In this document: positions 1,024-44,463 of the stretch, one piece after another
Position numbering within the stretch: position 1 is the first letter of the stretch
How the letters are laid out: each line of letters begins with the position of its first letter
From: Rhynchopus sp. YZ270_cl-10
Taxonomy: Eukaryota
Length of the DNA stretch: 64,000 bases
Direction of reading: 5' to 3'
Assembly: GCA_964035575.1 (NCBI GenBank)
Contig: OZ037837.1
Coordinates: forward strand, 558,001-622,000
Made by a program: the position numbers and the translations under genes
The notes under the pieces: generated by a model
Database searches by the model: none
What the model was told of the DNA's origin: nothing
Seen by the model: only the letters and a program-made list of their open reading frames with translations

Positions 1024-2127
1024 TCAAGACAGTTGTGTCGTGTCGACAACATTCACACCGTCATCCCCTCCGTACATCACCACACCACCACAGCTGCTGA
1101 TTGCAATACCGTAAGAAGAATGGCTCTCGCTTGCACGACACGGCAGTTCCCTCTGTTCCCCTGTTGAGATGGACCACACGCACAAAGACTCTGAATCGGG
1201 CGCGTAGACAGCAACAATGTCGTCGGACACAGCCATGTCAGTCCAGAAGTTTTCAGAGTCATCTTCAAATACACGTTCACCTGTTTCAATGTCCCAGACG
1301 AGTACGCAGTCTGGGCCACACCCTGCAATGAAACGCTGGTTTGGTGTCAGTGCTATATAAGCACTGCGAGTAGGGAACGTAAGGCCAAGCACCTCGACCC
1401 CTGTCGTGTAGTCCCATACGGTGAGTAGGTTGCTGTTCTTCCCAAACATCGCCACCCTGTCGCCTGCCACAAGCATGACGTACTCGCACTGCACAATGTG
1501 GTCCCATTCATGCACAACAACGCCTGTTGCAATGTCCCACACCTGCAAACCCTTGCTGCCACACGACAACAGCTTTGTTCCACAAGGTGACCATGCCGTG
1601 GTCCTCGTCTCATCACCATCTGGAAGTTCTTCTAAAGAGTGCTCCAGTGCACCTGTCCTCACGTCATGAACTTCAGCACACTGCGTGTCCTCGTTGACAC
1701 ATGAGATCCACTCACTGCACGGTGAGAAGGCTGGGTTGCTATTATGCTGGCACCGGAAGTGGCACTGACGCTCATGTGTTTCTGTGTCGAAGATGGACAG
1801 ACCCTCCTCACGCCACATCACTGCAAGGTACCTATCACACGGGGAGAGTGTGAGCGAGAATGTATCATCCACACGTGGTATCACCCCAGGAGTGATGTTG
1901 GCTCCAGTGCAGTACAGCTCAACGGCACACCCCTCATCCATCACCGTATCGCAGATGCGCAAGTCGTCGTTCCCGATGTCGCCACCGCCTCTCATCCGCA
2001 CACCAACATGCCGAGCACGTGGCACGCCAAGCTCCGCAACAAGCTTACCCTTCACCTGTGCAAGAGTGTCGCTCCCGTCCACTTCTATCACACAGCTTGC
2101 AGACTCGAAGTGTCCTGTGATGTCCAT
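1024..2127 (-). CDS. Ubiquitin-like (UBL) domain + WD40 beta-propeller protein, copy 1 (367 aa)
   Basis: Start MDITGHFES is shared by all copies; beta-grasp-like N-terminus (VIEVDGSDTLAQVKGKL...DLRICDTVMDEGCAVELY) then WD40 blades (AFSPC, LQVWDIATG, VLVWDIETG). Confidence 0.85.
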   Translation of the reverse strand: MDITGHFESASCVIEVDGSDTLAQVKGKLVAELGVPRARHVGVRMRGGGDIGNDDLRICDTVMDEGCAVELYCTGANITPGVIPRVDDTFSLTLSPCDRYLAVMWREEGLSIFDTETHERQCHFRCQHNSNPAFSPCSEWISCVNEDTQCAEVHDVRTGALEHSLEELPDGDETRTTAWSPCGTKLLSCGSKGLQVWDIATGVVVHEWDHIVQCEYVMLVAGDRVAMFGKNSNLLTVWDYTTGVEVLGLTFPTRSAYIALTPNQRFIAGCGPDCVLVWDIETGERVFEDDSENFWTDMAVSDDIVAVYAPDSESLCVWSISTGEQRELPCRASESHSSYGIAISSCGGVVMYGGDDGVNVVDTTQLS

Positions 2128-2266
2128 GTTCAGGGGGGGTAACTCTGTTCTGTGGGGTATGGTGTGTGGGAGGGCAGAGAAGACGGGTGGGGTGGTGTTT
2201 GTGAAGGAAACGAGATGTGCTGTCATTTTCAAAAAATACTAGAGAACACACAAGTTCAATCAAAGT

Positions 2267-2539
2267 GTCACAAGGTGCCAGGTTCTATGATAAGCACGGA
2301 ACCACCCTGCACCTGTTTGTCATATTGTTTCCCGTGCAATACATGGATAAACGTTTCGCACTCAAAACTAGGGATTTTTGATAAAAATTATCAAAATGCA
2401 AAAACCAGCGCGTGTGGAGGAAAAAAGGAGAGAACTATATTTATTCCGATTCGAAGTGATGCTTATGTTTTGGGTACGGGGCGGAGAATAAATTCTGTTT
2501 CGATAAAAGAAACGCGAGCTTATTGTTTTCTCTTGCTCA
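2267..2539. mobile_element. Non-autonomous derivative (termini B+A only) of the YR retrotransposon at 54593-61717
   Basis: 2267-2374 matches repeat B (cacaaggtgcc.ggttctatgataagcacggaaccaccctgcacctgtttgtcatat...aaactaggga); 2375-2539 is a diverged match to repeat A (...ttttgggtacggggcggagaataaa..ctgt.tcgataaaagaaacgc...cttg.tca). Confidence 0.8.
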
Positions 2540-3059
2540 GATGTGGTACTAAAAAAACAATAGAGATAACTACTTGGATACCCTGAAAGTGACCAAACAA
2601 TAGGCCCAGGGCGAAATGCAACAATAACATCATTGATAATAGGAGGGACTTTATTTTACAATCTGTTTTTTGACTGCACCTAGCTCTCGAAGGCAAGAGG
2701 CAAGAACATGAGGTGGTGCACACACGCACAGTACATCACAGCGCACAACAGTCGTGGTGAGGATGTTGTCAAGCAGGTACCTTCTCGGAACACAAGCAGG
2801 AGGAAAGGCTACGTGGTGCCACACACGGCATGCACACCTGGGGTTAGAGGTACTCACGCCTTCCCACGCCATTGACGGTAGTTGTGATTCACGTGTGTAA
2901 AAGACACAGCGGGACGTTGCGGTCTCCATTGCCAACCCACCCACAACGAGAGACATGTGCTATCTATCTTTGCGTATCTTCCCGCTTGGAGTTACACAGG
3001 CAAGGTGCAGGAAAAGGGAAGCAAAAGTAAATGGGCACCTTGCCGTTGTGGAAGTGGGT

Positions 3060-4160
3060 TCACGACAGTTGTGTGGTGTCGACAACATTCACACCGTCAT
3101 CCCCTCCGTACATCACCACACCACCACAGCTGCTGATTGCAACACCGTAAGAAGGATTGCTCTCGCTTGCACGAAACGGCAGTTCCCTCTGTTCCCCTGT
3201 TGAGATGGACCACACGCACAAAGACTCCGTACCGGGCGCGTAGACAGCAACAATGTCGTTCGACACAGCCATGTCAGTCCAGTAGGATGCTGTGTCATCT
3301 TCAAATACACGTTCACCTGTTTCAATGTCCCAGACGAGCACACAGTCTGGGCCACACGCTGCAATGAAACGCTGGTTAGGTGTCAGTGCTATGTAACAGA
3401 TGGGAAAAGAAGGGAACGTAAGTACAAGCACCTCGACCCCAGTCGTGTAGTCCCATACGGTGAGTAGGTTACTGTTCTCCCCAAACATCGCCACCCTGTC
3501 GCCTGCCACAAGCATAACGCACTCGCACTGCACAATGTGGTCCCATTCATGCACAACAACGCCTGTTGCAATGTCCCACACCTGCAAACCCTTGCTGCAG
3601 CACGACAACAGCTTTGTTCCACAAGGTGACCATGCCGTGGTCTTCCTCTCATCACCTTCATCTCCAAAAGAGTGCTCCAGTGCACCTGTCCTCACGTCAT
3701 GAACTTCAGCACACTGTGTGTCCTCATTGACACATGAGATCCACACACTGCACGGTGAGAAGGCTGGGTTGCTAGTATAGTCGCAAAGGAAGTGGCACTG
3801 ACGCTCATGTGTTGCTGTGTCGAAGATGGACAGACCCTCCTCTTGCCACATCACTGCAAGGTACCTGTCACACGGGGAGAGTGTGAGCGAGAATGTGTTG
3901 TCAGAACGTGGTATCACCCCAGGAGTGATGTTGGCACCAGTGCAGTACAGCTCAACGGCACACCCCTCATCCATCACCGTATCGCAGATGCGCAAGTCGT
4001 CGTTCCCGATGTCGCCACCGCCTCTCATCCGCACACCAACATGCCGAGCACGTGGCACACCAAGCTCCGCAACAAGCTTACCCTTCACCTGTGCAAGAGT
4101 GTCGCTCCCGTCCACTTCTATCACACAGCTTGCAGACTCGAAGTGTCCTGTGATGTCCAT
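3060..4160 (-). CDS. UBL + WD40 protein, copy 2 (366 aa)
   Basis: Intact paralog of copy 1 with the same UBL sequence. Confidence 0.85.
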   Translation of the reverse strand: MDITGHFESASCVIEVDGSDTLAQVKGKLVAELGVPRARHVGVRMRGGGDIGNDDLRICDTVMDEGCAVELYCTGANITPGVIPRSDNTFSLTLSPCDRYLAVMWQEEGLSIFDTATHERQCHFLCDYTSNPAFSPCSVWISCVNEDTQCAEVHDVRTGALEHSFGDEGDERKTTAWSPCGTKLLSCCSKGLQVWDIATGVVVHEWDHIVQCECVMLVAGDRVAMFGENSNLLTVWDYTTGVEVLVLTFPSFPICYIALTPNQRFIAACGPDCVLVWDIETGERVFEDDTASYWTDMAVSNDIVAVYAPGTESLCVWSISTGEQRELPFRASESNPSYGVAISSCGGVVMYGGDDGVNVVDTTQLS

Positions 4161-4449
4161 GTTCAGGGGGGTAACTCTGTTCTGTGGGGTATGGTGTGTG
4201 GGGAAGGCAGAGAAAACGGGAAAAAAGAGAACGGGGAGGGGGAGACACAGACGCGCAACTTTTCAGGAGGGTCTCTAGAGGATTTTGTAAAATGCTACGT
4301 GTTGACTAAAAAAGCAGTAGAGACCCTTTACTCCTTGGAGATACCCTGAAAGTGTCAAAACAATAGGCCCAGGACGAAATGCAACAATAACATCATTGAT
4401 AACAGGAGGGCGTTCAGGACAACAGCTAATGTGACCGCAATCGTGCACT

Positions 4450-5535
4450 TCATGACAGGTGTGAGATGTCAACAATCTCAACACCCGTGCCCCCTGCGTA
4501 TATCAGCACGTCAGTGCAGCTACTGATGGCGATACCGAAGTGGCACTCAACAACGTCACGGTGCAAGATCTTCTCAGATGTGGAGATGGACCAGAGACAC
4601 AACATTTTACCAGAAGAGTAAGCAGCAACAACGTCGTTCGACACAGCAACATCAGTCCACATGGTTTCTGAGACGTTTTCAAATATGCTTTCACCTGTTT
4701 CAATGTTCCATACACGCACACATTTGCCGCAACACGCTGCAATGAAACGCTGGTCTGGTGACAGTGCCAGATACGCAACATCAGAAGGGCATGTCATAAC
4801 ACGCACCTCGACCCCTGTCGTGTAGTCCCATACGGTGAGTAGGTTGCTGCTCTCCCCAAACATCGCCACCCTGTCGCCTGCCACAACCATAACGTAGCCT
4901 TCAACAATGTGGTCCCATTCATGCACAACAACGCCTGTTGCAATGTCCCACACCTGCAAACCCTTGCTGCCACACGACAACAGCTTTGTTCCACAAGGTG
5001 ACCATGCCGTGGTCTTCCTCTCATCACCTTCATCTCCAAAAGAGTGCTCCAGTGCACCTGTCCTCACTTCATGAACTTCAGCACACTCCATGTTCTGCTT
5101 GACACACGAGATCCACGCACTGCACGGTGAGAAGACTGGGGAATAATACACTTCTGCAGGGAAGCGGCTCAGAAGGTTATGTGTTTCTGTGTCGAAGATG
5201 GACACACCGTTATCGCGATCCATCACTGCAAGGTACCTGTCACACGGGGAGAGTGTGAGGAAGCAAGTCTCCTCCGTACCGTGTGGTATCACCCCAGGAG
5301 TGATGTTGGCTCCAGTGCAGTACAGCTCAACGGCACACCCCTCATCCATCACCGTATCGCAGATGCGCAAGTCGTCGTTCCCGATGTCGCCACCGCCTCT
5401 CATCCGCACACCAACATGCCGAGCACGTGGCACGCCAAGCTCCGCAACAAGCTTACCCTTCACCTGTGCAAGAGTGTCGCTCCCGTCCACTTCTATCACA
5501 CAGCTTGCAGACTCGAAGTGTCCTGTGATGTCCAT
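4450..5535 (-). CDS. UBL + WD40 protein, copy 3 (361 aa, most divergent propeller)
   Basis: Same UBL; first and last blades diverged. Confidence 0.85.
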   Translation of the reverse strand: MDITGHFESASCVIEVDGSDTLAQVKGKLVAELGVPRARHVGVRMRGGGDIGNDDLRICDTVMDEGCAVELYCTGANITPGVIPHGTEETCFLTLSPCDRYLAVMDRDNGVSIFDTETHNLLSRFPAEVYYSPVFSPCSAWISCVKQNMECAEVHEVRTGALEHSFGDEGDERKTTAWSPCGTKLLSCGSKGLQVWDIATGVVVHEWDHIVEGYVMVVAGDRVAMFGESSNLLTVWDYTTGVEVRVMTCPSDVAYLALSPDQRFIAACCGKCVRVWNIETGESIFENVSETMWTDVAVSNDVVAAYSSGKMLCLWSISTSEKILHRDVVECHFGIAISSCTDVLIYAGGTGVEIVDISHLS

Positions 5536-5896
5536 GTTCAGGGGGGTAACTCTGTTCTGTGAGGTATGGTGTGTGGTGTGGTGTGGAGGGTTGTGCAAGA
5601 ATGTCTTCAAGCACTGGGTTCTTCACGCGGTTGCCATTCATATGAAAACAATGGAGGTGGAGTGGTGGGTTCTGGTAGACATCATTGGTGGGAAGGTCCA
5701 CATTGTTGCACACGAAGATGAAAGCTTCGTGCGTGGGGTAGGAGTACGGGTGTGCCTTAAGGGGTGCTCTCGGATGCGGTGGTGAACAATTGTGTGATTT
5801 CGCTATTTTTTATTTTACAATCTGTTTTTTAACTCTCGCAGGCAAGGTGCAGGAAAAGGGAAGCAAAAGTAGATTGGCAGCGTTGTGGAAGTGGGT

Positions 5897-7000
5897 TCAA
5901 GCCAGTTGTGTGGTGTCGACAATATTCACACCGTCATCCCCTCCGTACATCACCACACCACCACAGCTGCTGATTGCAATACCGTAAGAATCGTGGCTCT
6001 CGCTTGCACGACACGGCAGTTCCCTCTGTTCCCCTGTTGAGATGGACCACACGCACAAAGACCCCGTATCGGGCGCGTAGACAGCAACAATGTCGTTCGA
6101 CACAGCCACGTCAGTCCAGAAGTTTTCCGAGTCATCTTCAAATACACGTTCACCTGTTTCAATGTCCCAGACGAGCACACAGTCTTCGTCACACCCTGCA
6201 ATGAAACGCTGGTTAGGTGTCAGTGCTATGTAACAGATAGAAGAAATGAACGTAACTACAAGCACCTCGACCCCAGTCGTGTAGTCCCATACGGTGAGTA
6301 GGTTGCTGCTCTTCCCAAGCATCGCCACCCTGTCGCCTGCCACAAGCATGACGTCCTCGCACTCCACAATGTGCTCCCATTCATGCACAACAACGCCTGT
6401 TGCAATGTCCCACACCTGCAAACCCTTGCTGCAGCACGACAACAGCTTTGTTCCACAAGGTGACCATGCCGTGGTCCTCCTCTCATCACCATCTGGAAGT
6501 TCTTCTCCAAAGGAGTGCTCCAGTGCACCTGTCCTCACGTCGTGAACTTCAGCACACTGCGTGTCCTCGTTGACACATGAGATCCACGCACTGCACGGTG
6601 AGAAGGCTGGAGAATAATACACTTTTGCAGGGAAGCGGCTCAGAAGTTCATGTGTTGCTGTGTCGAAGATGGACAGACGCTCACGCCACATCACTGCAAG
6701 GTACCTGTCACACGGGGAGAGTGTGAGCGAGCGTGTGTTATCCACACGTGGTATCACCCCAGGAGTGATGTTGGCTCCAGTGCAGTACAGCTCAACGGCA
6801 CATCCCTCATCCATCTCCGTGTCGCAGATGCGCAAGTCGCCGTTCCCGATGTCGCCACCGCCTCTCATCCGCACACCAACATGCCGATCACGTGGCACGC
6901 CAAGCTCCGCAACAAGCTTCCCCTTCACCTGTGCAAGAGTGTCGCTCCCGTCCACTTCTATCACACAGCTTGCAGACTCGAAGTGTCCTGTGATGTCCAT
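5897..7000 (-). CDS. UBL + WD40 protein, copy 4 (367 aa)
   Basis: Intact paralog; mosaic of copy-1-like and copy-3-like segments. Confidence 0.85.
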   Translation of the reverse strand: MDITGHFESASCVIEVDGSDTLAQVKGKLVAELGVPRDRHVGVRMRGGGDIGNGDLRICDTEMDEGCAVELYCTGANITPGVIPRVDNTRSLTLSPCDRYLAVMWRERLSIFDTATHELLSRFPAKVYYSPAFSPCSAWISCVNEDTQCAEVHDVRTGALEHSFGEELPDGDERRTTAWSPCGTKLLSCCSKGLQVWDIATGVVVHEWEHIVECEDVMLVAGDRVAMLGKSSNLLTVWDYTTGVEVLVVTFISSICYIALTPNQRFIAGCDEDCVLVWDIETGERVFEDDSENFWTDVAVSNDIVAVYAPDTGSLCVWSISTGEQRELPCRASESHDSYGIAISSCGGVVMYGGDDGVNIVDTTQLA

Positions 7001-7463
7001 GTTCAGGGGGGTGACTCTGTTCTGTGGGGTATGGTGTATGATGTGCTGTGTAGGGTTGTGCAAGGTGATATCGCTATTCTCTATTTTACACCTGTTTTTT
7101 CAATGCAACTAGCTCTCGCAGGCAAGAGGCAAGAACATGAGGTGGTGCACACACGCACAGTACACCACAGCGCACAACAGTAGTGGTGAGGATGTTGTCA
7201 AGCAGGTACCTTCTCGGAACACAAGCAGGAGGAAAGGCTACGTGGTGCCACACACGGCATGCACACCTGGGGTTAGAGGTACTAGTTGTGCTTCACGTGC
7301 GCAAAAGACACAACGAAACGGTGCGGTCTCCATTGCCAACACACCTACAACAAGAGACATGTGCTATCTATCTCTGCGTATCTTCCCGCTTGGAGTTACA
7401 CAGGCAAGGTGCAGGAAAAGGGAAGCAAAAGTAGATGGGCACCTTTCCGTTGTGGAAGTGGGT

Positions 7464-8533
7464 TCAAGACAGTTGTGTGGTGTCGACAATATTCACACCA
7501 CGAATACTTGCTCTCCCTTGCACTACAAGGCAGTTGCCTCTGTTCACCTGTTGAGATGGACCACACGCACAAAGACTGCGTACCGGGCGCGTAGACAGCA
7601 ACAATGTCGTTCGACACAGCCATGTCAATCCAGTAGTATTCCGTGTCATCTTCAAATACACGTTCACCTGTTTCAATGTCCCAGACGAGCACACAGTCTG
7701 GGCCACACGCTGCAATGAAACGCTGGTTAGGTGTCAGTGCTATATAACATACGGAAGAAGAGGACGAAAGTACAAGCACCTCGACCCCTGTCGTGTAGTC
7801 CCATACGGTGAGTAGGTTGCTGTTCATCCCAAACATCGCCACCCTGTCGCCTGCCACAAGCATAACGCACTCGCACTGCACAATGTGGTCCCATTCATGC
7901 ACAACAACGCCTGTTGCAATGTCCCACACCTGCAAACCCTTGCTGCAGCACGATAACAGCTTTGTTCCACAAGGTGACCATGCCGTGGTCCTCCTCTCAT
8001 CACTACCAGGTAGTTCTTCTGCAAAGCGCGCTCCAGTGTACAGAGCGCTCCAGTGCACCTGTCCTCACGTCATGAACTTCAGCACACAGTGTGTCCTCGT
8101 TGACACACGAAATCCACGCACTGCACGGTGAGAAGGCTGGGCTGCTAGTATGGTGGCAAGGGAAGTGGCACTGACGCTCATGTGTTGCTGTGTCGAAGAT
8201 GGACAGACCCTCCTCACGCCACATCACTGCAAGGTACCTGTCACACGGGGAGAGTGTGAGCAACAATGTGTTATCCACACGTGGTATCACCCCAGGAGTG
8301 ATGTTGGCTCCAGTGCAGTATAGCTCAACGGCACACCCCTCATCCATCACCGTGTCGCAGATGCGCAAGTCGTCGTTCCCGATGTCGCCACCGCCTCTCA
8401 TCCGCACACCAACATGCCGAGCACGTGGCACACCAAGCTCCGCAACAAGCTTCCCCTTCACCTGTGCAAGAGTGTCGCTCCCGTCCACTTCTATCACACA
8501 GCTTGCAGACTCGAAGTGTCCTGTGATGTCCAT
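7464..8533 (-). pseudogene. UBL + WD40 copy 5, frameshifted
   Basis: Homology is split over ORFs 8003..8608, 7396..8058 and 7464..7715; a short duplication (gcgctccagtg twice, ~8028-8055) shifts the frame and a deletion near 7500 removes part of the last blade. Confidence 0.8.
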
Positions 8534-9217
8534 GTTCAGGGGGGTGACTCTGTTCTGTGAGGTATGGTGTGTGGTGTGGTGTGGAGGGTTGCGCAAGAAT
8601 GTCTTCAAGCACTGGGTTCTTCACGCGGTTGCCATTCATATGAAAACAATGGAGGTGGAGTGGTGGGTTCTGGTGGACATCATTGGTGGGAAGGTCCACA
8701 TTGTTGCACACGAAGACGAAAGCTTCGTGCGTGGGGTAGGAGTACGGGTGTGCCTTAAGGGGTGCTCTCGGATGCGGTGGTGAACAATTGTGTGATTTCG
8801 CTATTTTTTATTTTACAATCTGTTTTTTTAACTGCGCCTAGCTCTCGCAGGCAAGAGGCAAGAACATGAGGTGGTGCACACACGCACAGTACACCACAGC
8901 GCACAACAGTAGTGGTGAGGATGTTGTCAAGCAGGTACCTTCTCGGAACACAAGCAGGAGGAAAGGCTACGTGGTGCCACACACGGCATGCACACCTGGG
9001 GTTAGAGGTACTCACGCCTTCCCACGCCATTGACGGTAGTTGTGATTCACGTGTGTAAAAGACACAGCGGGACGTTGCGGTCTCCATTGCCAACACACCC
9101 ACAACGAGAGACATGTGCTATCTATCTTTGCGTATCTTCCCGCTTGGAGTTACACAGGCAAGGTGCAGGAAAAGGGAAGCAAAAGTAGATGGGCACCTTT
9201 CCGTTGTGGAAGTGGGT

Positions 9218-10312
9218 TCAAGCCAGTTGTATGGTGTCGACAATATGCACACCGTCATCCCCTCCGTACATCACCACACCACCACAACTGCTGATTGCAA
9301 CACCGTAAGAAGAATGGCTCTCGCTTGCACGAAACGGCAGTTCCCACTGTTCCCCTGTTGAGATGGACCACACGCACAAAGACCCCGTACCGGGCGCGTA
9401 GACAGCAACAATGTCGTCGGACACAGCCATGTCCGTCCAGTAGTATTCCGTGTGATCTTCAAATACACGTTCACCTGTTTCAATATCCCAGACAAATATG
9501 CAGTCTGGGTCGCACGTTGCAATGAAACGCTGGTTTGGTGCCCCTGCAATAATACATATGGAAGAAGAGGACGAAAGTACAAGCACCTCGACCCCTGTCG
9601 TGTAGTCCCATACGGTGAGTAGGTTGCTGTCATGCCCAAACATCGCCACCCTGTCGCCTGCCACAAGCATAACGTCTTTGCACTCCACAATGTGGTCCCA
9701 TTCATGCACAACAACGCCTGTTGTAATGTCCCACACCTGCAAACCCTTGCTGCCACACGACAACAGCTTTGTTCCACAAGGTGACCATGCCGTGGTACGC
9801 GTCCCATCACCCTGAGTTCGAAAAGAGTGCAGTGCACCTGTCCTCACGTCATGAACTTCAGCACACTGCGTGTCCTCGTTGACACATGAGATCCACGCAC
9901 TGCACGGTGAGAAGGCTGGGTTACTAGTATGGTGGCAAGGGAAGTTGCACTGACGCTCATGTGTTGCTGTGTCGAAGATGGACAGACCCTCCTCACGCCA
10001 CATCACTGCAAGGTACCTGTCACACGGGGAGAGTGTGAGCGAGAATGTATCATCCACACGTGGTATCACCCCAGGAGTGATGTTGGCTCCAGTGCAGTAC
10101 AGCTCAACGGCACATCCCTCATCCATCTCCGTGTCGCAGATGCGCAAGTCGTCGTTCCCGATGTCGCCACCGCCTCTCATCCGCACACCAACATGCCGAG
10201 CACGTGGCACGCCAAGCTCCGCAACAAGCTTCCCCTTCACCTGTGCAAGAGTGTCGCTCCCGTCCACTTCTATCACACAGCTTGCAGACTCGAAGTGTCC
10301 TGTGATGTCCAT
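9218..10312 (-). CDS. UBL + WD40 protein, copy 6 (364 aa)
   Basis: Intact paralog. Confidence 0.85.
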   Translation of the reverse strand: MDITGHFESASCVIEVDGSDTLAQVKGKLVAELGVPRARHVGVRMRGGGDIGNDDLRICDTEMDEGCAVELYCTGANITPGVIPRVDDTFSLTLSPCDRYLAVMWREEGLSIFDTATHERQCNFPCHHTSNPAFSPCSAWISCVNEDTQCAEVHDVRTGALHSFRTQGDGTRTTAWSPCGTKLLSCGSKGLQVWDITTGVVVHEWDHIVECKDVMLVAGDRVAMFGHDSNLLTVWDYTTGVEVLVLSSSSSICIIAGAPNQRFIATCDPDCIFVWDIETGERVFEDHTEYYWTDMAVSDDIVAVYAPGTGSLCVWSISTGEQWELPFRASESHSSYGVAISSCGGVVMYGGDDGVHIVDTIQLA

Positions 10313-15640: not shown

Positions 15641-15798
15641 GGTGCGCGCGCAAACGAGAACCAAAATATAAAGTTGTTCTGCCCTGAACGAAAAACAATT
15701 TGCAGGCACCTTCCGTCGATTCTATTTCCTCTGACACTGGCCAATGCTTTTGAACACGTAGAACCCTCCCTTTTCGATTTATTCTTCTTTTGAGAGAT

Positions 15799-16974: not shown

Positions 16975-18093
16975 TCACTGCGAATGCATACACCTCTTGC
17001 ATGCTTCGTTGAAACCTTCGTCTTCGTCTCTGCTCCTCTTGGGACGTGTCTCCATTACACAGTCACCCAGGCTGCTGCGCTTCAGAGCGCTTGACACAGC
17101 ATCGCTGCAGCCAGAGACGAAGACGCTTTTAACATTCCCACACCCCGACAGCACGCCCCTCCCAAGCGTCTGCACACTGCGCAACGGCGAGAGATCGATC
17201 GCCGAAAGACCCACACAGCCACACAAGAAGTTCTCCCCAAGCTCCTTTACCCCCCCAAACGAAGACAAATTGACGGTTGTTAAACTTCTGCAGCTGTCAA
17301 GAAAATTGGAACCTACGTACGTTACGCTTGCTTCTGGAAGGTCTATCGCTGAGAGGCTGCTGCATTCACGAGCGAAGTATCCTCCTATATGCGTGACCCC
17401 GCCAAGTGAAGACAGATCAATCGAAGTTAAGCTGCTGCAGCCTTGAAGAAAGTGGACATCAATGTGTGTGATGGTGTCGAGCGATGAAAAGTCGACTGCG
17501 GACAACTTGGTGCACCCTCCCAGGAAGCAGCGCCCGATGTATGTGAGGCTATGGAGTGCGGACAAATTGACTTCGGTCAGGCTGCTGCATCCGCTGAGGA
17601 AGCAGCTCTCAATGCGCGCAACGTTGTAAAGGGACGAGAGGTCGATCTCAGTCAGGCTGCTGCAGCCACTCAAGAAGTTGCTTTCGATGTGCGTGACAAC
17701 CGACACACCCGATAAATCAAGTCGCGTCAACGTTTCATGCAATAAGAACCCTCTCGGAATCACAGTCGCCACCTCCGCCTGCAGAAGCAAACACGCCACC
17801 TCAGGATCACTCACACTCTCCAGCCTCTGTAAGGTGATGTCGGTCTCGCCCAACGCACGAAGCTCTGCGATGGCCTCGGATTTCTTTGTTCTCGTCAATG
17901 CAACAGTGTCGCCAGAACTCAGCTGCGTCATGTCCGCTCCTTCGTCCATCACCTTCCCTCCAAACCTGATCCTGAAGCTCTCTTCGGGCAACCCCACTGC
18001 AGCTGCTGCATTCCTGCGTAAGTCTGCGGTTGTGTCATCCACACCCACCTCAATAACGTATGTCTTGTCGGAAAATGTCACATTCAGATCCAT
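16975..18093 (-). CDS. UBL + 24-aa BspA-like leucine-rich repeat protein (372 aa)
   Basis: MDLNVTFSDKTYVIEVGVDDT...FRIRFGGKVMDEG (UBL), a helical cap, then repeats of the form LTxIDLSxLxxVTxIxxxFLxGCSS; C-terminal RPKRSR. The ORF extension upstream of 18093 is read-through of an antisense gene fragment. Confidence 0.85.
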   Translation of the reverse strand: MDLNVTFSDKTYVIEVGVDDTTADLRRNAAAAVGLPEESFRIRFGGKVMDEGADMTQLSSGDTVALTRTKKSEAIAELRALGETDITLQRLESVSDPEVACLLLQAEVATVIPRGFLLHETLTRLDLSGVSVVTHIESNFLSGCSSLTEIDLSSLYNVARIESCFLSGCSSLTEVNLSALHSLTYIGRCFLGGCTKLSAVDFSSLDTITHIDVHFLQGCSSLTSIDLSSLGGVTHIGGYFARECSSLSAIDLPEASVTYVGSNFLDSCRSLTTVNLSSFGGVKELGENFLCGCVGLSAIDLSPLRSVQTLGRGVLSGCGNVKSVFVSGCSDAVSSALKRSSLGDCVMETRPKRSRDEDEGFNEACKRCMHSQ

Positions 18094-31878: not shown

Positions 31879-34800
31879 TCATTGGGCCACCGCCAAGCTC
31901 TCCACGACGTCAAGGGCAAAGGAGTATGAGAATGCCTCCTCCAGTTCCTGTCCTGCTGCCTCCTGCTCTGCGTGCTGGTGATGTGTGTGTGTCCTGGTCT
32001 TCCGAGTCCGTGCCAAGAAGATGATGCCTGCAACCACCACCGCACAACACCCAACAATAACCCAAACAAACACAGGCACACCGGAGCTCGACCCATCCTG
32101 AGGTACAGGTGAAGGTGCTGCAGACCCACCGTCCCACTGCAAGCTGCACGGCGCAGTGCAGGTTGCAACAACCGCACTCCCCTTCAGACAGGGCACCACA
32201 AGCACTATCGGCCCCTCGGCGTTGCTTGCCACATGTGCACTTAGGTCTGCACCCAGTGCTGTCACAGACCCCAACGTCGCCGTCACACTCACGTTCGCGT
32301 CAACGTCGCAGAGCAACGCGCCTGAGAAGTCTTTGCTCACAGAGCTGTACGACCCTTGCAGCGTCATGTTCGTCTGTGTCGCGTTCAGTGCCTTCGCCAC
32401 CGAGAGTGTGGGCGTCACCTTCGCACCCTGACCATCCTCAGGCACCAGCACCGAGTGTATGCTCATTGTGTGCTCGAGCTCCATCCGTCCTGTTCCCCCC
32501 GTCAGCGGGCTTGCACGAAAATACATGTTTTCTTCGTACACTGTGTTCAGTGTGCCCTCAAACGTCTCGTTTGGGCCAAGTGACAGTGGCACCCACCACA
32601 GCACAGCGTCCGTGTCGTGTGAGTGAAGCATCACCATGAACTCCGCTGTCTCCCCTGCACCGCGTGTCAGTGTAAAGCTCTGCAGGTACGCTGTGTGCGT
32701 CTGTGCAAGGTCCCCCTGGGAAAGCTTGAACAGTGACAGCAGGTCTAGCGTGATTGTGTTCTGCAGGCTGTGTGGCGGAGGGTGGGTTCGGAAGTTCATT
32801 TAAGTTTAGCTTTGTGTACTTTCAATGCAGAACAAACAAACATACCTATGCAGGTTGAAATCAAGCCTGCCCTGCACTACTGCAGAGAGGAAGACTGTCC
32901 CTGACAGCGGTGGTGCCGGGACAGGAGGCAACAGCGGTGCTACCGACACAACGCTGCTGGATGGTACCTGCGTCGGGTCCACCCATGAGAACACAGCGTC
33001 CAGACTGGAGGACACCCACAGGGCACTGCCACGCAGACAGCGCGTCGTGAAGACAGTCTCGTGGCCTGGGTGATCGAACACGAACGCCGTCATGTTAGAG
33101 GACAGCACGCGCAGCCACCCCGCAAAGGGGTGCACCGTGAAGGTGATCTCGCTCTCTGCCGCCCCGCAGTCCAGCATCATGGTGCTCTGTATATGGTAGT
33201 CGCTGCTCTTGCCGTTCATGGGCAGGCGTGGGAGGTCACCAAACGCATCTCTGTTCAGCTCCAACCGTGCAACGTCGGCCTCAGGCAAACCAGGCTCGGG
33301 TGTCAACCTTGTGTACAAGAGCATCTTCCCTTCGAAATCTGTTCCACTGCTGGCATCAGAGCTGAACATCACTGTGAACGCCCTCGCATTGACAACCTGG
33401 GTGGCGTGGGAGAAGATAGGGGACAATGTGGCAGTGTGGCCTGGTTCAAGACTGACCCACTCCTGCAGGACCTGCTCCAGGTTGCCCCCTGCCTCCTTCG
33501 CAACCACTGACACAGAAAAATACGCACGTTCACCACCATCATCAGCACGTGAGAGTGTGAGCGCGTGGAACGAAAACAACTGACCGGGTACTTCCTCCGC
33601 CAAGAAGCCTTGTTCCATGTCGAACAAGGACCTGCAAGAGTGGTGTGTGGTGTGTGTGTGTGTGTGGTGGGTGGGGAGCAATACATACCCTTCGGGATAA
33701 GCGACGCGGATGTTGCCTACGATGATTTGAGTCACTGCGACAGGAGGTGCCATAGTTGTCGGGGAAGGTGTTGGCGGCGCAGCTGTCGGCACTGCTGTTG
33801 GGACAGCCGTTGGTACGCGTGTTGATGGTGCAGAGGTTGCAGGTGATGGTGTCGGTGGAACTGCTGTTGGGACAGCCGTTGGTACGAGTGTTGGTGGTGC
33901 AGAGGTTGGAGGCGATGGTGTTGGTGGTACATCTGTCGTCGGAATGTTGGTCGCCGGTGCATCAGTCGGTGGAAGTGTTGGTGACGCTGTTGCGGGTGCA
34001 GGGGTGGAGAAGAGCTCAAAGACCTCCATGTAACCAAGGTTGCCTGCGTCGAAGTACGCACGCCAGCCGTAGCCGTAGCCTTGGCTTGCGAAGAGCTTCA
34101 TGGCGCCGGTCTGCAGCTGGTGGGCGAACACTACCTGGGGGTTGCGGAGGTCGCTCAGGTCCCAGCCGTACACTTTGTTGGTCATCATGGTGGTCGCATA
34201 TACCACCGTACCTAGGACGGTTATATCGTAGATACTTGCTCCTAACAGACGGTGCATGTACACCACGTCAACGCCATCCTCCCACGACGCGCCAGACCGG
34301 GCAAGCACGACCATATGATCCCACCAGGTTTTGACCACAGCGCCTGCAAGCCCATCACCGACCGCCTCCAGAGACACAAAACGGAGCCCCAGGAACTGCG
34401 AATGGATGAGCACCGGGTTCATGAAATCGGAGATGTTGTAAATCTCAAAGTCGATGCCACCGTATGACGTATAATACGAAATGAACATCACATCGCCGCT
34501 AATTGCGTGGACACTCGACGCCCCCGGCAGGGTGAGTAAGGTGGCATTCTCCCCGGTCGTAATATCGACCCACACCAGGATTCCAGGACCATCCGTTACG
34601 ACCCTCCTGTTGAACATCAGGTACATACCGTCCCCGTGCACGGAGGTAGCACGCTGAGGGTACCAGAGTGAGGCATTGAACGCCAGACGAAAATCTTCAG
34701 AGCACGACACCTCATCCAGCCCGCTGAATATCGAGTACTGCCCGCCACCAATGAACGCCAAAATCCGTGTACTATCGTAATAGAAAACGTTGCTGGGGGT

Positions 34801-36191
34801 ATAGATGTTGCCCATGTTGCAGGCCTTTGGGAAGGTGGGGTTCGTTGGGTCGCTGTCATTCATGAGGTACAGTTGGCCGCCTTGGAAGAGGAGGGTTGGG
34901 AGGCTGCGGTCTTGGTGATCACGTACGTAGTCGTGAGATACTAAGGGGATGACCGTGGACGTGATGTTCGTGATGGGGTAAGGTGCGAGAGGTGTCATCG
35001 ACTGCGGCGGTGTTGTAGGCTCTGCCGTGGGGCTGGCTGTCGGTGAGGTAGTTGCGTGGTGTGTTGGTGGTGTAGCAGGTGCTGACGTGGCAGGCACAGC
35101 GGTGACAGGTGTCTGTGTTGGTGGTGTACCTGTTGCCGGCACGTAGAACTGCCAGGAGAATTGTGAGGCTTGCTCAGACACGACGAAGATCTGCTTGCCC
35201 TTCGCACAAGGCACATCCATCCAGATGCCGAAGTTCTTGTTGCTTGCGGAAAACCCGTAAAACGCCGTCTCAGCGCCTGTGTGGTCGTGGATCGTGACAA
35301 AGCCTGGCTCGTAGTCCTTCAGAAAAAACCTCATCTTCCCGTACTCTGTGCATGTGATAACACCTGCGTATGTCTCTGCACTGGATGAGAGCTCACCGTT
35401 CATGCCCCACGTCGTGTCGACACCATCGTAGCTGCCTGCAGCGATGTGCTGTGTGACTGCGTCTGGCGACAGTGCAGGTGTCAGCAGTTCGGGCACGCCA
35501 TTGTTCGGGACAAACGTTAATCCCACGGACATGGTGGAGATAAAGATATCCTGAACACTCCCTGTCAGCTTCACACACAGGTCGTCACCACTCTCCCACG
35601 CAGTACGGTTAAACGGCACACCCGTCACCTCCACAGTCATCCATTCCCATGCCACGATGTTCACATCCTCCGAGAACAGTGTTGGTGTATTCGACCCACA
35701 CCCCTGTGTGATGGACAGCGTCACATTGGCATCTTCTTGAGCCCAGATGGTCAGACTGGCGATAGACACAACGTAGTTGTCCATCACATCACCCTCAAGC
35801 AGGCTGATGGCAGAGCCCACACCAGCAGAAAGACCTCCAGACCTGTGGTGGTGTTGTGTGTGGCACTATGTTCCTCATTCCAAGTACACAAAGATGCGTA
35901 ATACTGTGCTTCACTCTGTGTGCAAATGTGGCAAAAGGTTCACAACCCTCTGGTTGTTGTATTTCCTCTTCCTCGACACGATGTGTTTTACTACAAAAGA
36001 TGTTAAAGCGCACAGATCTGTGTTTTGCATCTTGACATTGTTCTGAAGTGGAAGAGGGCCACATACCCGACTGTGACACGCGCCTGTGTCCTCTGCATCT
36101 CGTGCACCGTGCTGGCCAGTGAAGCCTCTGCCAGAAGAGACAGCAGCACAAAGGCTGTGGTGTGCTTCCCCCGCCGACATGTTGTTGACAT
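31879..36191 (-). CDS. Large type I membrane/surface protein (~1317 aa): signal peptide, repeated beta-rich domains, LVIVD-like propeller, two P/T mucin-like linkers, TM helix; exons 36191-36067, 35842-33689, 33631-32846, 32767-31879
   Basis: MSTTCRRGKHTTAFVLLSLLAEASLAS signal; three GTATGT...AG introns (224, 57 and 78 nt) keep one frame (3954 nt); IYNISDFMNPVL and WDLSDLRNPQVV; TM VFVWVIVGCCAVVVAGIIFLA followed by RTRK. Confidence 0.85.
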
Positions 36192-36683: not shown

Positions 36684-37742
36684 CTACAGGACGAGAAACT
36701 CTGTTGAAAGCGCCGAGCCAAGAATGAACACCTTGGTGGAACATGACGACACGGCAATGCCACGAAAGGCCCCATGCGAGCCCGACCGCTTCACTACATC
36801 TCTTGTGGCCACGTCGACCTGGACAATATCCCAGTCCCCACCGCACACGAGACACCTGCCACATGGACTGAAGGCCAACGCTCCGGACGGCAGAGACTCG
36901 GGTATGGCCTCGAAGCGATCTTCACCTCTGCGCATTATAAGTACAACAGCAATGCCTGCCACTGCCACCTTGTGTCCACAAGGCGACAGGGCGATAGCGG
37001 TTATGGGAACAATAGAGTCCGCACTCCAGAGCTTTGTGTTCGGCTCGACCTCGTACACAACACACTCATAGGTTGTGCACAGTGCGAGGTACTTCCCGTT
37101 AGGCGAGGAGGACACACCGCTGCACTCACCCTCTACGGTAAACTGCCGTGTCAGCTGCAGGTCGTCCAGCGTGTACAGGTTCACACCGTTTAGATGCCGT
37201 GATACCAGGTATTTTTCGTTCGTGGTGACCTCGAGAGACGTCTCGTGGGTGCGGTTGCGCACTTTCCCATTCATATCTACCTGTGTAAGGCCGCAGATGC
37301 CTTCTGAGAAGTATGCCCATTGCGCGAATGGTGAGAGAGCGATGGAACGGCGTTTGCAGTTTGGGTTGAGGACTCTGACAGTCTCGAAGGTCTCTGTGTT
37401 GATGAGGTGCACGCCGTTGTTGAGAGGCAGCATGCAGACACCACCGTCGGCAGAGATCGCAAAGGTCCGACACGGCCCCCCGAGCGGGTACTGATGCGGG
37501 CAGAGCACGTTCACCTCCCGTTGACACAGATACACTTCGCCATCGAACGGCGTATCCCTCAAGGCACTCTTATCATCCAAAGCCACCTTCTCCCCTTCTG
37601 TACACACACAAACCTGCAGTGTCCTGCTCTGGACGTTGAACGCCTCGCACGCAACCTCCTTCACAGCACCGACAGTAGCATCGCAGGGGGTCTCCACCAT
37701 CTGAGAAGCACCCGTCGCGTCCAGAATGCAATGGACATCCAT
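36684..37742 (-). CDS. Divergent UBL + WD40 protein (352 aa)
   Basis: MDVHCILDATGASQMVETPCDATVGAVKEVACEAF...LDDKSALRDT (UBL), then ALSPCG / AFSPCG / AVSSCS blades. Confidence 0.8.
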   Translation of the reverse strand: MDVHCILDATGASQMVETPCDATVGAVKEVACEAFNVQSRTLQVCVCTEGEKVALDDKSALRDTPFDGEVYLCQREVNVLCPHQYPLGGPCRTFAISADGGVCMLPLNNGVHLINTETFETVRVLNPNCKRRSIALSPFAQWAYFSEGICGLTQVDMNGKVRNRTHETSLEVTTNEKYLVSRHLNGVNLYTLDDLQLTRQFTVEGECSGVSSSPNGKYLALCTTYECVVYEVEPNTKLWSADSIVPITAIALSPCGHKVAVAGIAVVLIMRRGEDRFEAIPESLPSGALAFSPCGRCLVCGGDWDIVQVDVATRDVVKRSGSHGAFRGIAVSSCSTKVFILGSALSTEFLVL

Positions 37743-39151: not shown

Positions 39152-39283
39152 ACTGGGTACTGGGTACTGGGTACTGGGTACTGGGTACTGGGTACTGGGT
39201 ACTGGGTACTGGGTACTGGGTACTGGGTACTGGGTACTGGGTACTGGGTACTGGGTACTGGGTACTGGGTACTGGGTACTGGG
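39152..39283. repeat. Perfect (ACTGGGT)n heptamer array, ~19 units
   Basis: Read directly from the sequence. Confidence 0.95.
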
Positions 39284-41536: not shown

Positions 41537-41601
41537 ATCCAACTACGAGCTTTTTAACAGCAGCAGCATTAATATACGCTATTGGTGCTGGAATTACCGC
41601 G
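41537..41601 (-). pseudogene. 18S rRNA fragment (530-loop-equivalent region leading into V4)
   Basis: Reverse complement CGCGGTAATTCCAGCACCAATAGCGTATATTAATGCTGCTGCTGTTAAAAAGCTCGTAGTTGGAT. Confidence 0.9.
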
Positions 41602-42984
41602 AACGTATCCCCACACTCAGTCACATATCATCCAAAATCTCGCTAGCCGTATACTTTTTCATATTTTTCACTCAGAAATGTGAGATGCATATTTTTTATC
41701 GTCCGACACCGGAATTGAACGTTTCGAAACCGCGCTTTCAAAAGAAATAAAAATCTCAAAAAAATAAAAAAAATATTTTTTCTGAAATGGCCGTGTCAGT
41801 TTTTTCTCGTTTTCTTATCGGTGACTCAAGAAATAAAGTGTCAACAAACGCCCAAAAAAATTAGCTTGTATGCATTTCCGGACTCCGCCCAATAAAATAA
41901 AAAAAAAATCGAAAACTTTAGTGGAGTTAAAGTTACATAAAAACCAGACCATGGCTTTAGGTACTAATACAAGGCAAATTGCTTAGCAAAACGGGCCGAG
42001 TTCCACACAAAATACTAGTGACAGTCAAAAAATTTTCGCGAGACGAAACCGGCGTTATTTGAATGATATTATGAACCCTCGTTCCAAAGAAAAAAAAATC
42101 GAAAACTTTCTTGAAGTTGCGTCAAGGTGAAACATCTTGGTCATTAGAAGGAAAACCCGGGAAATCCTTAAGGAAATGGGTGTGGTAAGGGAAACCTTAA
42201 GGAACCTACTGAAAACCGCCCCCCTCACGATTTTTCTTCAGAATACCACAGGTGCGTAAAAAAAATCGTCCGACCCCGGAATTGAACGCTTTTACACCCG
42301 ATATTTCAAAATAAATAAAAATCGAAAAAAAAAATTGGGCTAATAATTTCCAGGATGTTTGCGGGCACGCCCGCAAGCGTTTGCGACACCGAGGGTGTAA
42401 TTTTCCCCCCCGAAAATGCGCTTGTATGAATTTCCGGAGCGATCTGAAAAAATTCCGGGGTCGGACAATTTTTTTAGCGAAAAATGGATAACCTAAAAAC
42501 CAGACCAAAATCGGGCTTTTCTATACGGCTGGGCAGATTTTGGATGATATGCTTTTTTTATTTTTTATTTTTTTGATAAATTGTTGGAGTAGTGTAGTTG
42601 CCTCGGTTGTGTTGCCACAGTTGTGCAATCTCCACTGTTTTTGAAAATCACCAAACGCTGCACAACAATGAACGAAAAATTGACAATTGTCCTGATGTGT
42701 ATGTAATGTGTGTTTATTCAGCACATTTTTTTTATGAAACAAAGAAACGTTTGTCGAGACGAACCTAAGCCTCCGTGCATCAGTATTTCCACACACCCAG
42801 CCAACCCTCTCAAATCCTCCCAATTGTATCTTATCCAACTCATCCCAACAAACCCCACCACCTCACTCTGTCACTCCCTCCCAAAAAGACAAACCCCCTT
42901 TTGTGGTTCACTCCTTCTTTTCTTCCCTTCCCACCCTTTTTGCTAGTGTCGTCGTTCTCAACAGCAGCAACAGCAATGGTGTTA

Positions 42985-44463
42985 TCAGGCGATGGCGCAG
43001 TCTTTCCTTGTGTGTTCAGGAAGACTCGTGAGTACAGCATTGCTGCACTTCTCCCTTCCACGCAAGGTCTTTAATGCTGGGCACTCATCCAAGAACCCGC
43101 GTCCGATCTTGGTGACACCTTGCAATCCACTCAGATCAACTGTCTTCAATGATGTGCACCTGCGGAAGAACCCGTTCCCAATCGAGGTGACAGCTTGTAA
43201 TGCACTCAGATCGACAGTCGTCAATGATGTGCACTCGTAGAGGAACCCGTTCCCAACCTTGGTGACAGCTTGTAATCCACTCAAATCAACTGTTGACAAT
43301 GATGTGCACTGAAAGAGGAACCCGTGACCAATCGAGGTGACACCTTGTAATCCAGTCAGATCAACAGTCTTCAATGATGTGCAGCCATTAAGAAAGTCAT
43401 TCCCAATCGCAACCAAAGCAGATGCGTAACTGATGTCAATGCACGTCACCGTATTTTTTGAGAAGAAGTCGTCTGGAATCGCAGTCGCAGCTCCCGCCTG
43501 GAGGAGCAAGCAAGCCAGCTTCGGATCACTGCGTTGATCAGTCACCTGCTTCAACCTTTCCGATGTAAGTGTCATCTCACCCAACGCACGAAGTGCAACA
43601 ATGGCATCCTGCACACTCACCTGCACAACAAGCGCCCACTTCTGTGTTAGGGCATCGTGCACGTTCGAAACAGGCAGCTTCAGGGAAAACGTTGTGTGTG
43701 GGTCTGCAGCACCCACAAGGCGGTGGCGGTCTCCACTCGCTGCCATGCTGTTGATGTTCCGCACAACGGCCTGCGACTCTGTGACCGCACGCAACACCTG
43801 GTCGTCCCCAAGCTGGCACACCGCCTCGCACTCAGCAATCATGTGTCCTGCCTTCGCAACAAACGTCTTCAGTGCACACACCTCCCCTTCACGACTGAGT
43901 GCCTGTGTGAGGAAGCTCCGTGCCACCTCCTCCTCACACACGACTTCGCTGCGCGACACATCCTCACGCATCACGAGGTGTCCGACGCGTGTCTGCAGGA
44001 GAAGGTCTTTGTACTTGTCCTCTGTGTGTGGGAGTGCCTCAAGCGCACGGCACTTCTCCTCTGCAGCAGTCCGCTGTGCTGTCAGGTCTGCCACGTGTGA
44101 GTGGAGGGTTTCACGCTGGCGTTTTATGTAGTCCGTGATGTCAACTGTCTCATGTGCGGCATGTGTTTCGCACTTGTCACAGCGCATGCAGATCAACGCG
44201 TCTCCACACGCAGGGTGCACACAAATGAGGCACAGCTCTTGGCCTGGGTGATGTGCACACTTCGACGACGTCCCGTACGGAGTCACAGAAGCGCGATGTG
44301 CCTCGCGGTCACGTGCCCTCAAGGATGAGTGGAACACTTCGAAGCACGCAGACTTGTCGCAGAAGAACAGCTCCGTGCAGTTCCCACACTGCAGCTGTGC
44401 AGGCACGTCACAGTTCTCACAGTTGGGCCTCAGTGGTGCGGTGGGCTGCGTGTCACACCCCAT
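42985..44463 (-). CDS. TRIM-like protein without a RING: B-box1, B-box2, coiled coil, helical cap, 24-aa LRRs (492 aa)
   Basis: CENC..CGNC..FFCDKSACFEVFH..H; CAHHPGQELCLIC..C..LICMRC..H..H; coiled coil; LxTVDLSGLQxVTxIGxGFLxxCTS repeats. Confidence 0.85.
   Translation of the reverse strand: MGCDTQPTAPLRPNCENCDVPAQLQCGNCTELFFCDKSACFEVFHSSLRARDREAHRASVTPYGTSSKCAHHPGQELCLICVHPACGDALICMRCDKCETHAAHETVDITDYIKRQRETLHSHVADLTAQRTAAEEKCRALEALPHTEDKYKDLLLQTRVGHLVMREDVSRSEVVCEEEVARSFLTQALSREGEVCALKTFVAKAGHMIAECEAVCQLGDDQVLRAVTESQAVVRNINSMAASGDRHRLVGAADPHTTFSLKLPVSNVHDALTQKWALVVQVSVQDAIVALRALGEMTLTSERLKQVTDQRSDPKLACLLLQAGAATAIPDDFFSKNTVTCIDISYASALVAIGNDFLNGCTSLKTVDLTGLQGVTSIGHGFLFQCTSLSTVDLSGLQAVTKVGNGFLYECTSLTTVDLSALQAVTSIGNGFFRRCTSLKTVDLSGLQGVTKIGRGFLDECPALKTLRGREKCSNAVLTSLPEHTRKDCAIA

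What the first reader, a model, noticed from the sequence alone, without database searches (positions are those of the whole stretch)
1024..44463. Candidate modular UBL-receptor system: a ubiquitin-like module combined with WD40, LRR and SH3-like recognition domains
Seen: nine genes start with a UBL that has no cleavable C-terminal GG. It is followed by a WD40 propeller (7 genes), an LRR (1) or an SH3-like barrel (1). The LRR cap AIAELRALGETDIT..DPEVACLLLQAEVATVIP recurs as AIVALRALGEMTLT..DPKLACLLLQAGAATAIP behind a B-box/coiled-coil instead of a UBL (42985-44463). N-terminal effector modules and C-terminal binding modules are therefore shuffled. Known: integral UBLs can dock on the proteasome, p97 or E3 complexes, and TRIM, LRR and WD40 proteins act as sensors. 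Inference: an expanded, diversifying adaptor repertoire that delivers foreign (viral or endosymbiont) proteins for degradation, i.e. a possible protist intracellular immune system.
Basis: partly seen in the sequence, partly recalled or inferred. Interest (0 to 1): 0.85.

Follow-up and report, generated by a model that had tools for sequence, protein, structure and literature searches.

The report
Hypervariable ubiquitin-like receptor gene families
Two gene families of a single-celled eukaryote, each with over 260 distinct sequences, join a conserved ubiquitin-like domain to a predicted binding surface that differs from copy to copy, and likely form a receptor repertoire that recognises foreign proteins inside the cell.

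Summary
The observation largely holds, and the families are far larger than this window shows. The window has seven UBL-WD40 genes (six tandem copies, one a pseudogene, plus one divergent gene), one UBL-LRR gene, one UBL chimera and one B-box/coiled-coil-LRR gene. Searches found 262 UBL-WD40 and 279 cap-LRR relatives, apparently from the same, likely diplonemid, organism.

In the WD40 family the UBL is 93% conserved and the propeller 70%; 48 of 49 hypervariable sites lie at the top-face loops. LRR variation forms a Tyr/Ser/Gly-rich stripe, and most LRR proteins end in a bipartite NLS. Paralogs exchange loop tracts. The LRR-gene UBL folds as a beta-grasp (rmsd 1.7 A to ubiquitin); the WD40-gene UBL is less firmly shown.

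Verdict: a real, fast-diversifying repertoire of intracellular recognition adaptors, resembling F-box/MATH-BTB expansions but with a UBL as the constant module. Interest 0.72.

The parts
1024..2127 (-). W1: UBL (aa 1-72) + 7-bladed WD40 propeller, 367 aa
   Evidence: model; Foldseek WD40 hits
3060..4160 (-). W2: UBL-WD40, 366 aa, 90% identical to W1
4450..5535 (-). W3: UBL-WD40, 361 aa; UBL DNA identical to W1, whole protein 72%
5897..7000 (-). W4: UBL-WD40, 367 aa; shares a loop tract (codons 121-132) with W3
7464..8533 (-). W5: UBL-WD40 pseudogene (19-nt insertion near 8020-8039, 53-nt deletion near 7499)
   Evidence: lesions bridged by contigs of run X2
9218..10312 (-). W6: UBL-WD40, 364 aa
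15779..16381 (-). S: W-type UBL with a 10-aa insertion fused to an unrelated 118-aa tail of no assigned fold; 16132-16656 is a 90%-identical copy of the 5' end of W3/W5
   Evidence: junction bridged by a run X4 contig 15703-16183; no fold evidence
16975..18093 (-). L: UBL (aa 1-69), three-helix cap (70-105), BspA/TpLRR solenoid, bipartite-NLS-like tail, 372 aa
   Evidence: tail pattern
36684..37742 (-). W7: divergent, weakly supported UBL + WD40, 352 aa
42985..44463 (-). B: zinc finger (B-box 1/MYND-like), B-box 2, coiled coil, cap (from 43605), BspA LRR, CaaX-like end, 492 aa; no UBL and no RING seen

Best explanation
These genes belong to two greatly expanded families of proteins without signal peptides, in which a conserved ubiquitin-like domain is joined to a hypervariable predicted binding face (WD40 top loops or an LRR side stripe), and they likely act as intracellular receptors that catch foreign proteins and would hand them, through the ubiquitin-like domain, to one conserved host machine, most likely of the ubiquitin-proteasome system.

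Shown: the architecture, family size, one-face variability, conserved UBL, loop exchange between paralogs, pseudogenes, NLS-like tails on the LRR family, and loss of Ile44.

Inferred: that the variable face binds ligands; that the ligands are foreign (endosymbiont effectors, viruses, mobile elements); that LRR members work in the nucleus and WD40 members in the cytosol; and that the UBL docks on degradation or unfolding machinery through a non-canonical surface. In the L family the conserved surface is the helix and the C-terminal half.
For: Size: 262 hits among 2607 candidates for W1 and 279 among 299 for the LRR cap, each a separate 90% cluster. All 120 W hits listed carry the UBL; 115 of 122 LRR proteins do.

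Constant versus variable: W UBL 93% and propeller 70% mean pairwise identity; 80 positions at 1.5 bits or more, none in the UBL. With loops defined from the model, top loops average 1.93 bits and bottom loops 0.32 (p 2e-17); 48 of 49 sites over 2 bits lie within 2 residues of a top loop, a zone holding 134 of 282 positions.

LRR: 422 of 427 repeats are distinct, with four stripe positions at 3.0-3.7 bits; two of them are 15% Tyr and 29% aromatic against 3% and 12% by codon count.

DNA of 5 intact paralogs: UBL pN/pS 0.2, on few changes; M2a vs M1a p 2.5e-6, omega 2.9 at 28% of sites, with 24 of 109 top-face and 6 of 189 other codons flagged; conversion tracts.

Against: No binding partner, target or transcript was shown.

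The Ile44-equivalent is Arg in W1, S and L, Ser in 86% of the L family and Cys in W7; Val70 is Thr or Tyr.

Region-averaged omega of top-face codons is 0.67-0.84, under 1. Synonymous change is raised there too (4-fold sites 0.129 vs 0.067), and the site test within the top face alone is not significant (p 0.10). The whole-gene test can be inflated by recombination and by uneven synonymous rates.

W hypervariable sites are polar (Asp, Asn, Glu, Lys) and only 3.8% Tyr. WD40 top loops tolerate change more than bottom turns in general (recalled). In L the cap helix follows the last UBL strand directly, leaving no free tail of the kind midnolin lays near the Rpn11 active site. The organism and its parasites are inferred.
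Confidence: 0.5

Rival explanations
1. The same adaptor repertoire aimed at self or selfish targets: mobile-element products, mating or self/non-self determinants, or stage-specific host proteins, rather than infecting microbes.
For: Every sequence feature of a variable receptor fits equally well. The window holds a retroelement, an RNase H fragment and palindromic elements. NLS-like tails in 83 of 122 LRR proteins point to the nucleus. Fungal WD40 receptors with hypervariable faces serve allorecognition (PMC12222747 passages).
Against: Hundreds of near-unique binding faces and a pseudogene inside an array suit a moving external target better than a fixed set of host substrates (inference).
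Confidence: 0.2
2. A largely neutral expansion: tandem copies are homogenised by gene conversion in the UBL and framework, while surface loops drift, and most copies do little.
For: Top-face omega under 1, with raised synonymous change. W1 and W3 have identical UBL DNA, which is conversion rather than selection. One of six tandem copies is broken; 7 of 122 LRR proteins lack the UBL and 39 of 122 lack the tail pattern. S may be a dead chimera.
Against: Variation sits on one face in two unrelated folds. Second-codon-position divergence at the top face (0.212) exceeds 4-fold-site divergence there (0.129) and elsewhere (0.067). The LRR stripe is Tyr-rich.
Confidence: 0.12
3. The UBL is not a degradation handle but a signalling or oligomerising module, or a handle for an AAA-ATPase such as midasin, so ligand binding triggers remodelling or a signal.
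For: Ile44 is lost. UBL-WD40 is the architecture of Rsa4 and Ytm1, whose UBL binds the MIDAS domain of Rea1 (PMC6920918 passages; Rsa4 4wjs is rank 7). In B a B-box/coiled coil, an oligomerising unit in TRIM5 (recalled), stands where the UBL would be.
Against: No NLE-domain Pfam hit. The Rsa4 match has 15% identity and rmsd 11 A, among many generic WD40 hits.
Confidence: 0.1
4. One reading: canonical shuttles whose UBL binds Rpn1, Rpn10 or Rpn13 as Rad23 and Dsk2 do.
For: The L UBL overlays Dsk2 UBL and ubiquitin (Z 11.5-11.8, rmsd 1.3-1.5 A). Position 8 stays hydrophobic (Phe 70%, Trp 11%, Leu 8%) and the His68 position is Ile or Val.
Against: Ile44 is replaced by Arg, Ser or Cys and Val70 by Thr or Tyr. 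The role of this patch is recalled knowledge.
Confidence: 0.08

Closest known systems
Nematode and plant F-box and MATH-BTB adaptor expansions (PMC4334554 passage citing its ref. 41; that paper itself not read)
   Same: Large birth-death families with a conserved N-terminal docking module and a variable C-terminal binding module, proposed to remove foreign proteins.
   Different: No F-box or BTB domain was found here; the constant module is a UBL, and no cullin link is shown.
Midnolin (10.1101/2025.02.22.639686 passages)
   Same: N-terminal integral UBL, then a substrate-binding domain, then a C-terminal NLS; the L family has this order.
   Different: The binding domain is a BspA-type LRR, not Catch; hundreds of variable paralogs; no linker between UBL and cap; Rpn11 or Rpn1 binding untested.
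Rsa4/NLE1 and Ytm1/WDR12 (PMC6920918 passages)
   Same: UBL followed by a WD40 propeller.
   Different: Conserved ribosome-assembly factors, against a 260-plus hypervariable family; no NLE Pfam hit; 15% identity to Rsa4.
Highly variable plant NLRs (PMC8226289 passages) and fungal HNWD receptors (PMC12222747 passages)
   Same: Periodic entropy spikes on one face of an LRR or WD40 sensor, with recombination among copies. The W family has 80 sites at 1.5 bits or more against their threshold of 10 (paralogs here, near-alleles there).
   Different: No NACHT or NB-ARC ATPase and no TIR or HET domain; LRR variation lies on the IGxxFLxxC side stripe, not the concave sheet.
Trichomonas BspA-like family (PMC2843621 passages)
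   Same: A huge protist expansion of TpLRR proteins (911 entries there).
   Different: Described as candidate surface proteins; 'ubiquitin' occurs 0 times in that paper's main text. Here the proteins start with a UBL and end in an NLS-like tail.
TRIM5 and fish finTRIMs (PDB match; PMC2657112 seen as a search listing only)
   Same: Gene B has B-boxes, a coiled coil and a C-terminal binding domain.
   Different: No RING seen; LRR instead of B30.2; one gene seen so far.

Membership tests
Integral UBL-domain proteins | beta-grasp fold | tested here: met
   L. W-type only by weak sequence and profile matches and a low-confidence model; W7 weaker still.
Integral UBL-domain proteins | no C-terminal GG for processing | tested here: met
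   GG in 1 of 120 and 0 of 114
Rad23/Dsk2-type proteasome shuttles | Leu8-Ile44-Val70 hydrophobic patch (recalled) | tested here: not met
   Ile44 is Arg, Ser or Cys; Val70 is Thr or Tyr
Rad23/Dsk2-type proteasome shuttles | UBA domain | tested here: inconclusive
   The cap is three helices but has no Pfam or PDB sequence hit and overlays LRR N-caps; it was not folded alone.
Rad23/Dsk2-type proteasome shuttles | binding to Rpn1, Rpn10 or Rpn13 | not testable with these tools
   No proteasome subunit of this organism was available (no genome)
Midnolin-type ubiquitin-independent adaptors | UBL, substrate domain, C-terminal NLS in that order | tested here: met
   NLS pattern in 83 of 122 LRR proteins; pattern only, localisation not tested
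Midnolin-type ubiquitin-independent adaptors | Catch domain | tested here: not met
   The substrate domain is a TpLRR solenoid
Midnolin-type ubiquitin-independent adaptors | UBL bound by Rpn11 and NLS helix bound by Rpn1 | not testable with these tools
   Partner sequences not available
Rsa4/NLE1, Ytm1/WDR12 | NLE/MIDO-type UBL with the MIDAS-binding glutamate | tested here: inconclusive
   No NLE Pfam hit; the glutamate was not mapped
Rsa4/NLE1, Ytm1/WDR12 | conserved low-copy gene | tested here: not met
   262 hits, hypervariable
F-box/BTB cullin adaptors | F-box or BTB domain | tested here: not met
   None in Pfam scans; the N-terminal domain is a UBL
TRIM proteins (gene B) | B-box and coiled coil | tested here: met
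   TRIM5 5va4 E 7e-5, MID2 E 0.008
TRIM proteins (gene B) | N-terminal RING | tested here: not met
   The first finger matches ANCHR-like B-box (E 0.006) and MYND weakly, not RING. An upstream exon is not excluded.
BspA/TpLRR proteins | TpLRR solenoid | tested here: met
   Pfam LRR_5 E 1.6e-24 and 1.4e-15; TpLRR 6mlx Z 20.3, rmsd 2.7 A over 194 residues
Immune receptors under diversifying selection | dN/dS above 1 at binding-face sites | tested here: inconclusive
   Whole propeller p 2.5e-6, top face alone p 0.10, averaged omega under 1; five sequences only
Immune receptors under diversifying selection | expression and binding of foreign ligands | not testable with these tools
   No RNA holder listed; the laid runs cover intergenic DNA

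The most novel reading that the evidence does not exclude
A protist innate immune system of 500 or more germline-encoded, antibody-like receptors, nuclear (UBL-LRR-NLS) and cytosolic (UBL-WD40), diversified by loop-swapping gene conversion, that carry their own ubiquitin-like tag and deliver endosymbiont or viral proteins straight to the proteasome without ubiquitination: a midnolin-like route turned into a repertoire.
Probability: 0.2. Interest if true: 0.92.

Novelty: new variant of a known kind. Interest (0 to 1): 0.72.

Why it matters
How free-living protists recognise intracellular bacteria and viruses is poorly known. These families show the sequence hallmarks of direct-binding immune receptors in two unrelated folds, coupled to a constant module, a UBL, that my literature searches did not find described in this role. 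The constant UBL is a single bait that would reveal the downstream machine, and the mapped variable faces say where specificity lies, so the question can be tested directly. If the UBL reaches the proteasome, it bears on the question left open in the midnolin preprint of whether other UBL proteins deliver cargo without ubiquitin, and it would offer natural programmable degraders.

Tried and rejected
No whole genome is held, so there is no genome-wide census and no DNA for paralogs outside the window.

Expression: no RNA holder listed. The runs laid cover intergenic DNA, so expression is untested; summed depths were not used as copy numbers.

Relatives elsewhere: none of the LRR family in viral contigs (39 pattern matches, 0 confirmed) or metagenome contigs (597, 0); none of the WD40 family in viral contigs (20, 0). 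The W-type UBL against 1.84 billion representatives gave 88 hits: 8 of the same family, 79 with ubiquitin-like domains and 1 unrelated repeat protein. The L-type UBL alone gave only 3 hits, although the cap search later showed over 100 such UBLs, so that word-based search is insensitive and absence elsewhere is not shown.

SH3 call for S: no hit; no homologs and no model.

Cap as a UBA domain: no sequence support; a complex prediction with ubiquitin was not run. A UBX-type FPR loop (motif recalled) is absent from the UBL alignments.

The Atlas look-up for L gave no answer. A first LRR regex failed and was redone. Loops chosen by entropy were circular and were replaced by model-defined loops. 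Blade-to-blade distance correlations across 120 proteins are low and fall with distance (0.12 to 0.00; random column groups 0.15-0.17), which fits recombination but also a star-like, query-biased sample. Earlier-finding look-ups returned nothing.
Full report
Setting. All recognisable genes in the 64 kb lie on the minus strand, most without introns, while the calpain gene has GT-AG introns. One-strand clusters with canonical introns are described for Diplonema papillatum (PMC10161547 passages), so I infer a diplonemid-like euglenozoan; no call names the organism. No whole genome is held.

Observation. W1-W6 form a tandem array at 1024-10312. W5 carries a 19-nt insertion and a 53-nt deletion, both bridged without mismatch by single contigs of run X2. 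W7 is a distant UBL-WD40 gene. L is UBL, cap, BspA-type LRR; B is zinc finger, B-box 2, coiled coil, cap, LRR. The cap match between L and B scores 113 against a shuffle maximum of 48 in 1000. The L model (pLDDT 93) has a beta-grasp at 1-69 that matches ubiquitin (TM 0.79, rmsd 1.7 A; Z 11.5-11.9 to ubiquitin, Dsk2 and BAG1 UBLs). The W1 model has a confident seven-bladed propeller but a low-confidence N-domain, whose UBL identity rests on Pfam E 0.013, ubiquitin-dominated PDB hits and hhalign P=50%. W7's UBL is weaker. S is a recent chimera: 16132-16656 copies the 5' end of W3/W5 at 90%, the junction is bridged by a contig, and its tail has no database match. GG follows the UBL in 1 of 120 and 0 of 114 relatives.

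Family size. W1 finds 262 proteins among 2607 candidates; the best 120 were listed and analysed. They are 68-100% identical, unnamed, each on one contig, with about 30 different contig lengths and about 43 sharing one length (hand count). All 120 have the UBL. The cap finds 279 among 299 candidates. Of 122 examined (those 120 listed plus two), 115 have a UBL before the cap, 7 have only short N-termini, and none has a B-box; the 159 weaker hits, where B-like genes would fall, were not listed. At least four contig lengths occur in both lists, including the window's own. That both families come from one organism is an inference, and haplotype duplicates could inflate the counts. No relatives were confirmed in viral or metagenome contigs, and the W-type UBL had no close relative outside the family among 50% representatives.

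Where the variation lies. In the 120 W proteins the UBL is 93% and the propeller 70% identical. With loops defined from the model, top-face loops average 1.93 bits and bottom loops 0.32 (p 2e-17); 48 of 49 sites over 2 bits lie within two residues of a top loop (134 of 282 positions qualify), and 29 of 40 variable-gap columns are there. Individual loops have 57 to 116 distinct sequences in 120 proteins. In the LRR family 422 of 427 perfect 25-residue repeats (from 118 proteins) are distinct; the concave LTxLDL strand is conserved and the IGxxFLxxC stripe reaches 3.0-3.7 bits, with 15% Tyr and 29% aromatics at two positions. The L UBL is itself more variable (72% mean identity), mostly in the first two strands. 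A bipartite NLS pattern (consensus recalled) ends 83 of 122. The window proteins start with the UBL or zinc finger and show no N-terminal hydrophobic stretch.

How it diversifies. Among five intact paralogs, W3 and W4 share 14 informative sites at codons 121-132, W2 and W3 differ at one base over codons 151-210, and W1 and W3 have identical UBL DNA: patchwork gene conversion. Selection is only partly shown. The top-face tree is 3.5 times longer than the rest, but averaged omega is 0.67-0.84 and synonymous change is doubled there. A site model over the propeller favours a class with omega 2.9 (p 2.5e-6; 24 of 109 top, 6 of 189 other codons), but within the top face alone p is 0.10, and within the rest 0.03. 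Recombination and uneven synonymous rates can inflate such tests.

Shuffling. W, L and W7 UBLs are three distant lineages (hhalign W vs L P=40-42%). Within the LRR family UBL distance tracks LRR and tail distance (rho 0.65-0.66, 89 proteins). The cap overlays helical N-caps of bacterial LRR proteins. Swaps occur (S, B, and P0165 with a coiled coil ahead of its UBL) but are the exception.

Mechanism. The anatomy says constant docking module plus variable binding face; that is the F-box/MATH-BTB pattern (PMC4334554 passage), and the entropy pattern is that of direct-binding NLRs (PMC8226289 passages) and fungal WD40 sensors (PMC12222747 passages). Diplonemid endosymbionts carry secretion systems and effectors (10.1101/719211 passages), a plausible driver if the taxon inference holds. 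The downstream step is open. The Ile44 patch used by canonical proteasome receptors (recalled) is lost: Arg, Ser or Cys at 44, Thr or Tyr at 70. Midnolin shows that a UBL-binder-NLS protein can reach the proteasome through Rpn11 and Rpn1 without ubiquitin (10.1101/2025.02.22.639686 passages), and L has that order, but no linker after the UBL; W has a conserved 8-residue linker. Rsa4 and Ytm1 show that a UBL-WD40 can instead be a handle for an AAA-ATPase (PMC6920918 passages). I put the recognition repertoire at about 0.8, the full defence-adaptor model at 0.5 and the direct ubiquitin-independent route at 0.2.

Novelty. Searches (open-access library only) found no report of expanded UBL-WD40 or UBL-LRR families. 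The D. papillatum genome paper has no main-text mention of ubiquitin, leucine-rich or WD40; its supplements were searched and the rows shown, at most two per term and file, name none. The parts and the evolutionary pattern are known; a UBL as the constant module of two hypervariable repertoires appears not to be. Verdict: real, new variant of a known kind, interest 0.72.

Noticed in passing
window 50754-53405 (-) and 62373-64000 (-): Two ankyrin-repeat genes built of near-identical 300-bp units (92% and 86% matches) with a few variable residues; the first has an NLS-like N-terminus. They could be a third variable-receptor family.
   Followed up: partly
window 42985-43000 (-); P0123: B and P0123 end in CaaX-like tetrapeptides (motif recalled) instead of the NLS-like tail, suggesting membrane-targeted variants.
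   Followed up: no
window about 15928 (-): A splice-donor-like site inside S; the last 49 codons may be intron and the gene may continue downstream.
   Followed up: no
window 22426-25417 (-): Calpain-C2 gene split by GT-AG introns with a small middle exon near 24068-24128.
   Followed up: partly
window 57381-62250 (-): Retroelement with overlapping gag-like (CCCH finger) and reverse-transcriptase ORFs, next to a 348-bp tandem array at 55101-56613.
   Followed up: no
window 28956-30346 and 19199-19815: Long palindromic elements (94% and 89% self-complementary); also an RNase H fragment at 12976-13746 (+) and a 265-bp tandem array at 14844-15640.
   Followed up: no
window 46443-47741 (-) and 31879-35865 (-): A cysteine-rich, probably secreted protein and a large proline/threonine-rich membrane-anchored protein, neither with a meaningful Pfam family.
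   Followed up: no
P0165, P0172: P0165 has a long coiled-coil-like region ahead of UBL-cap-LRR. P0172 has an insertion between UBL and cap whose end recurs in three UBL-less relatives.
   Followed up: no
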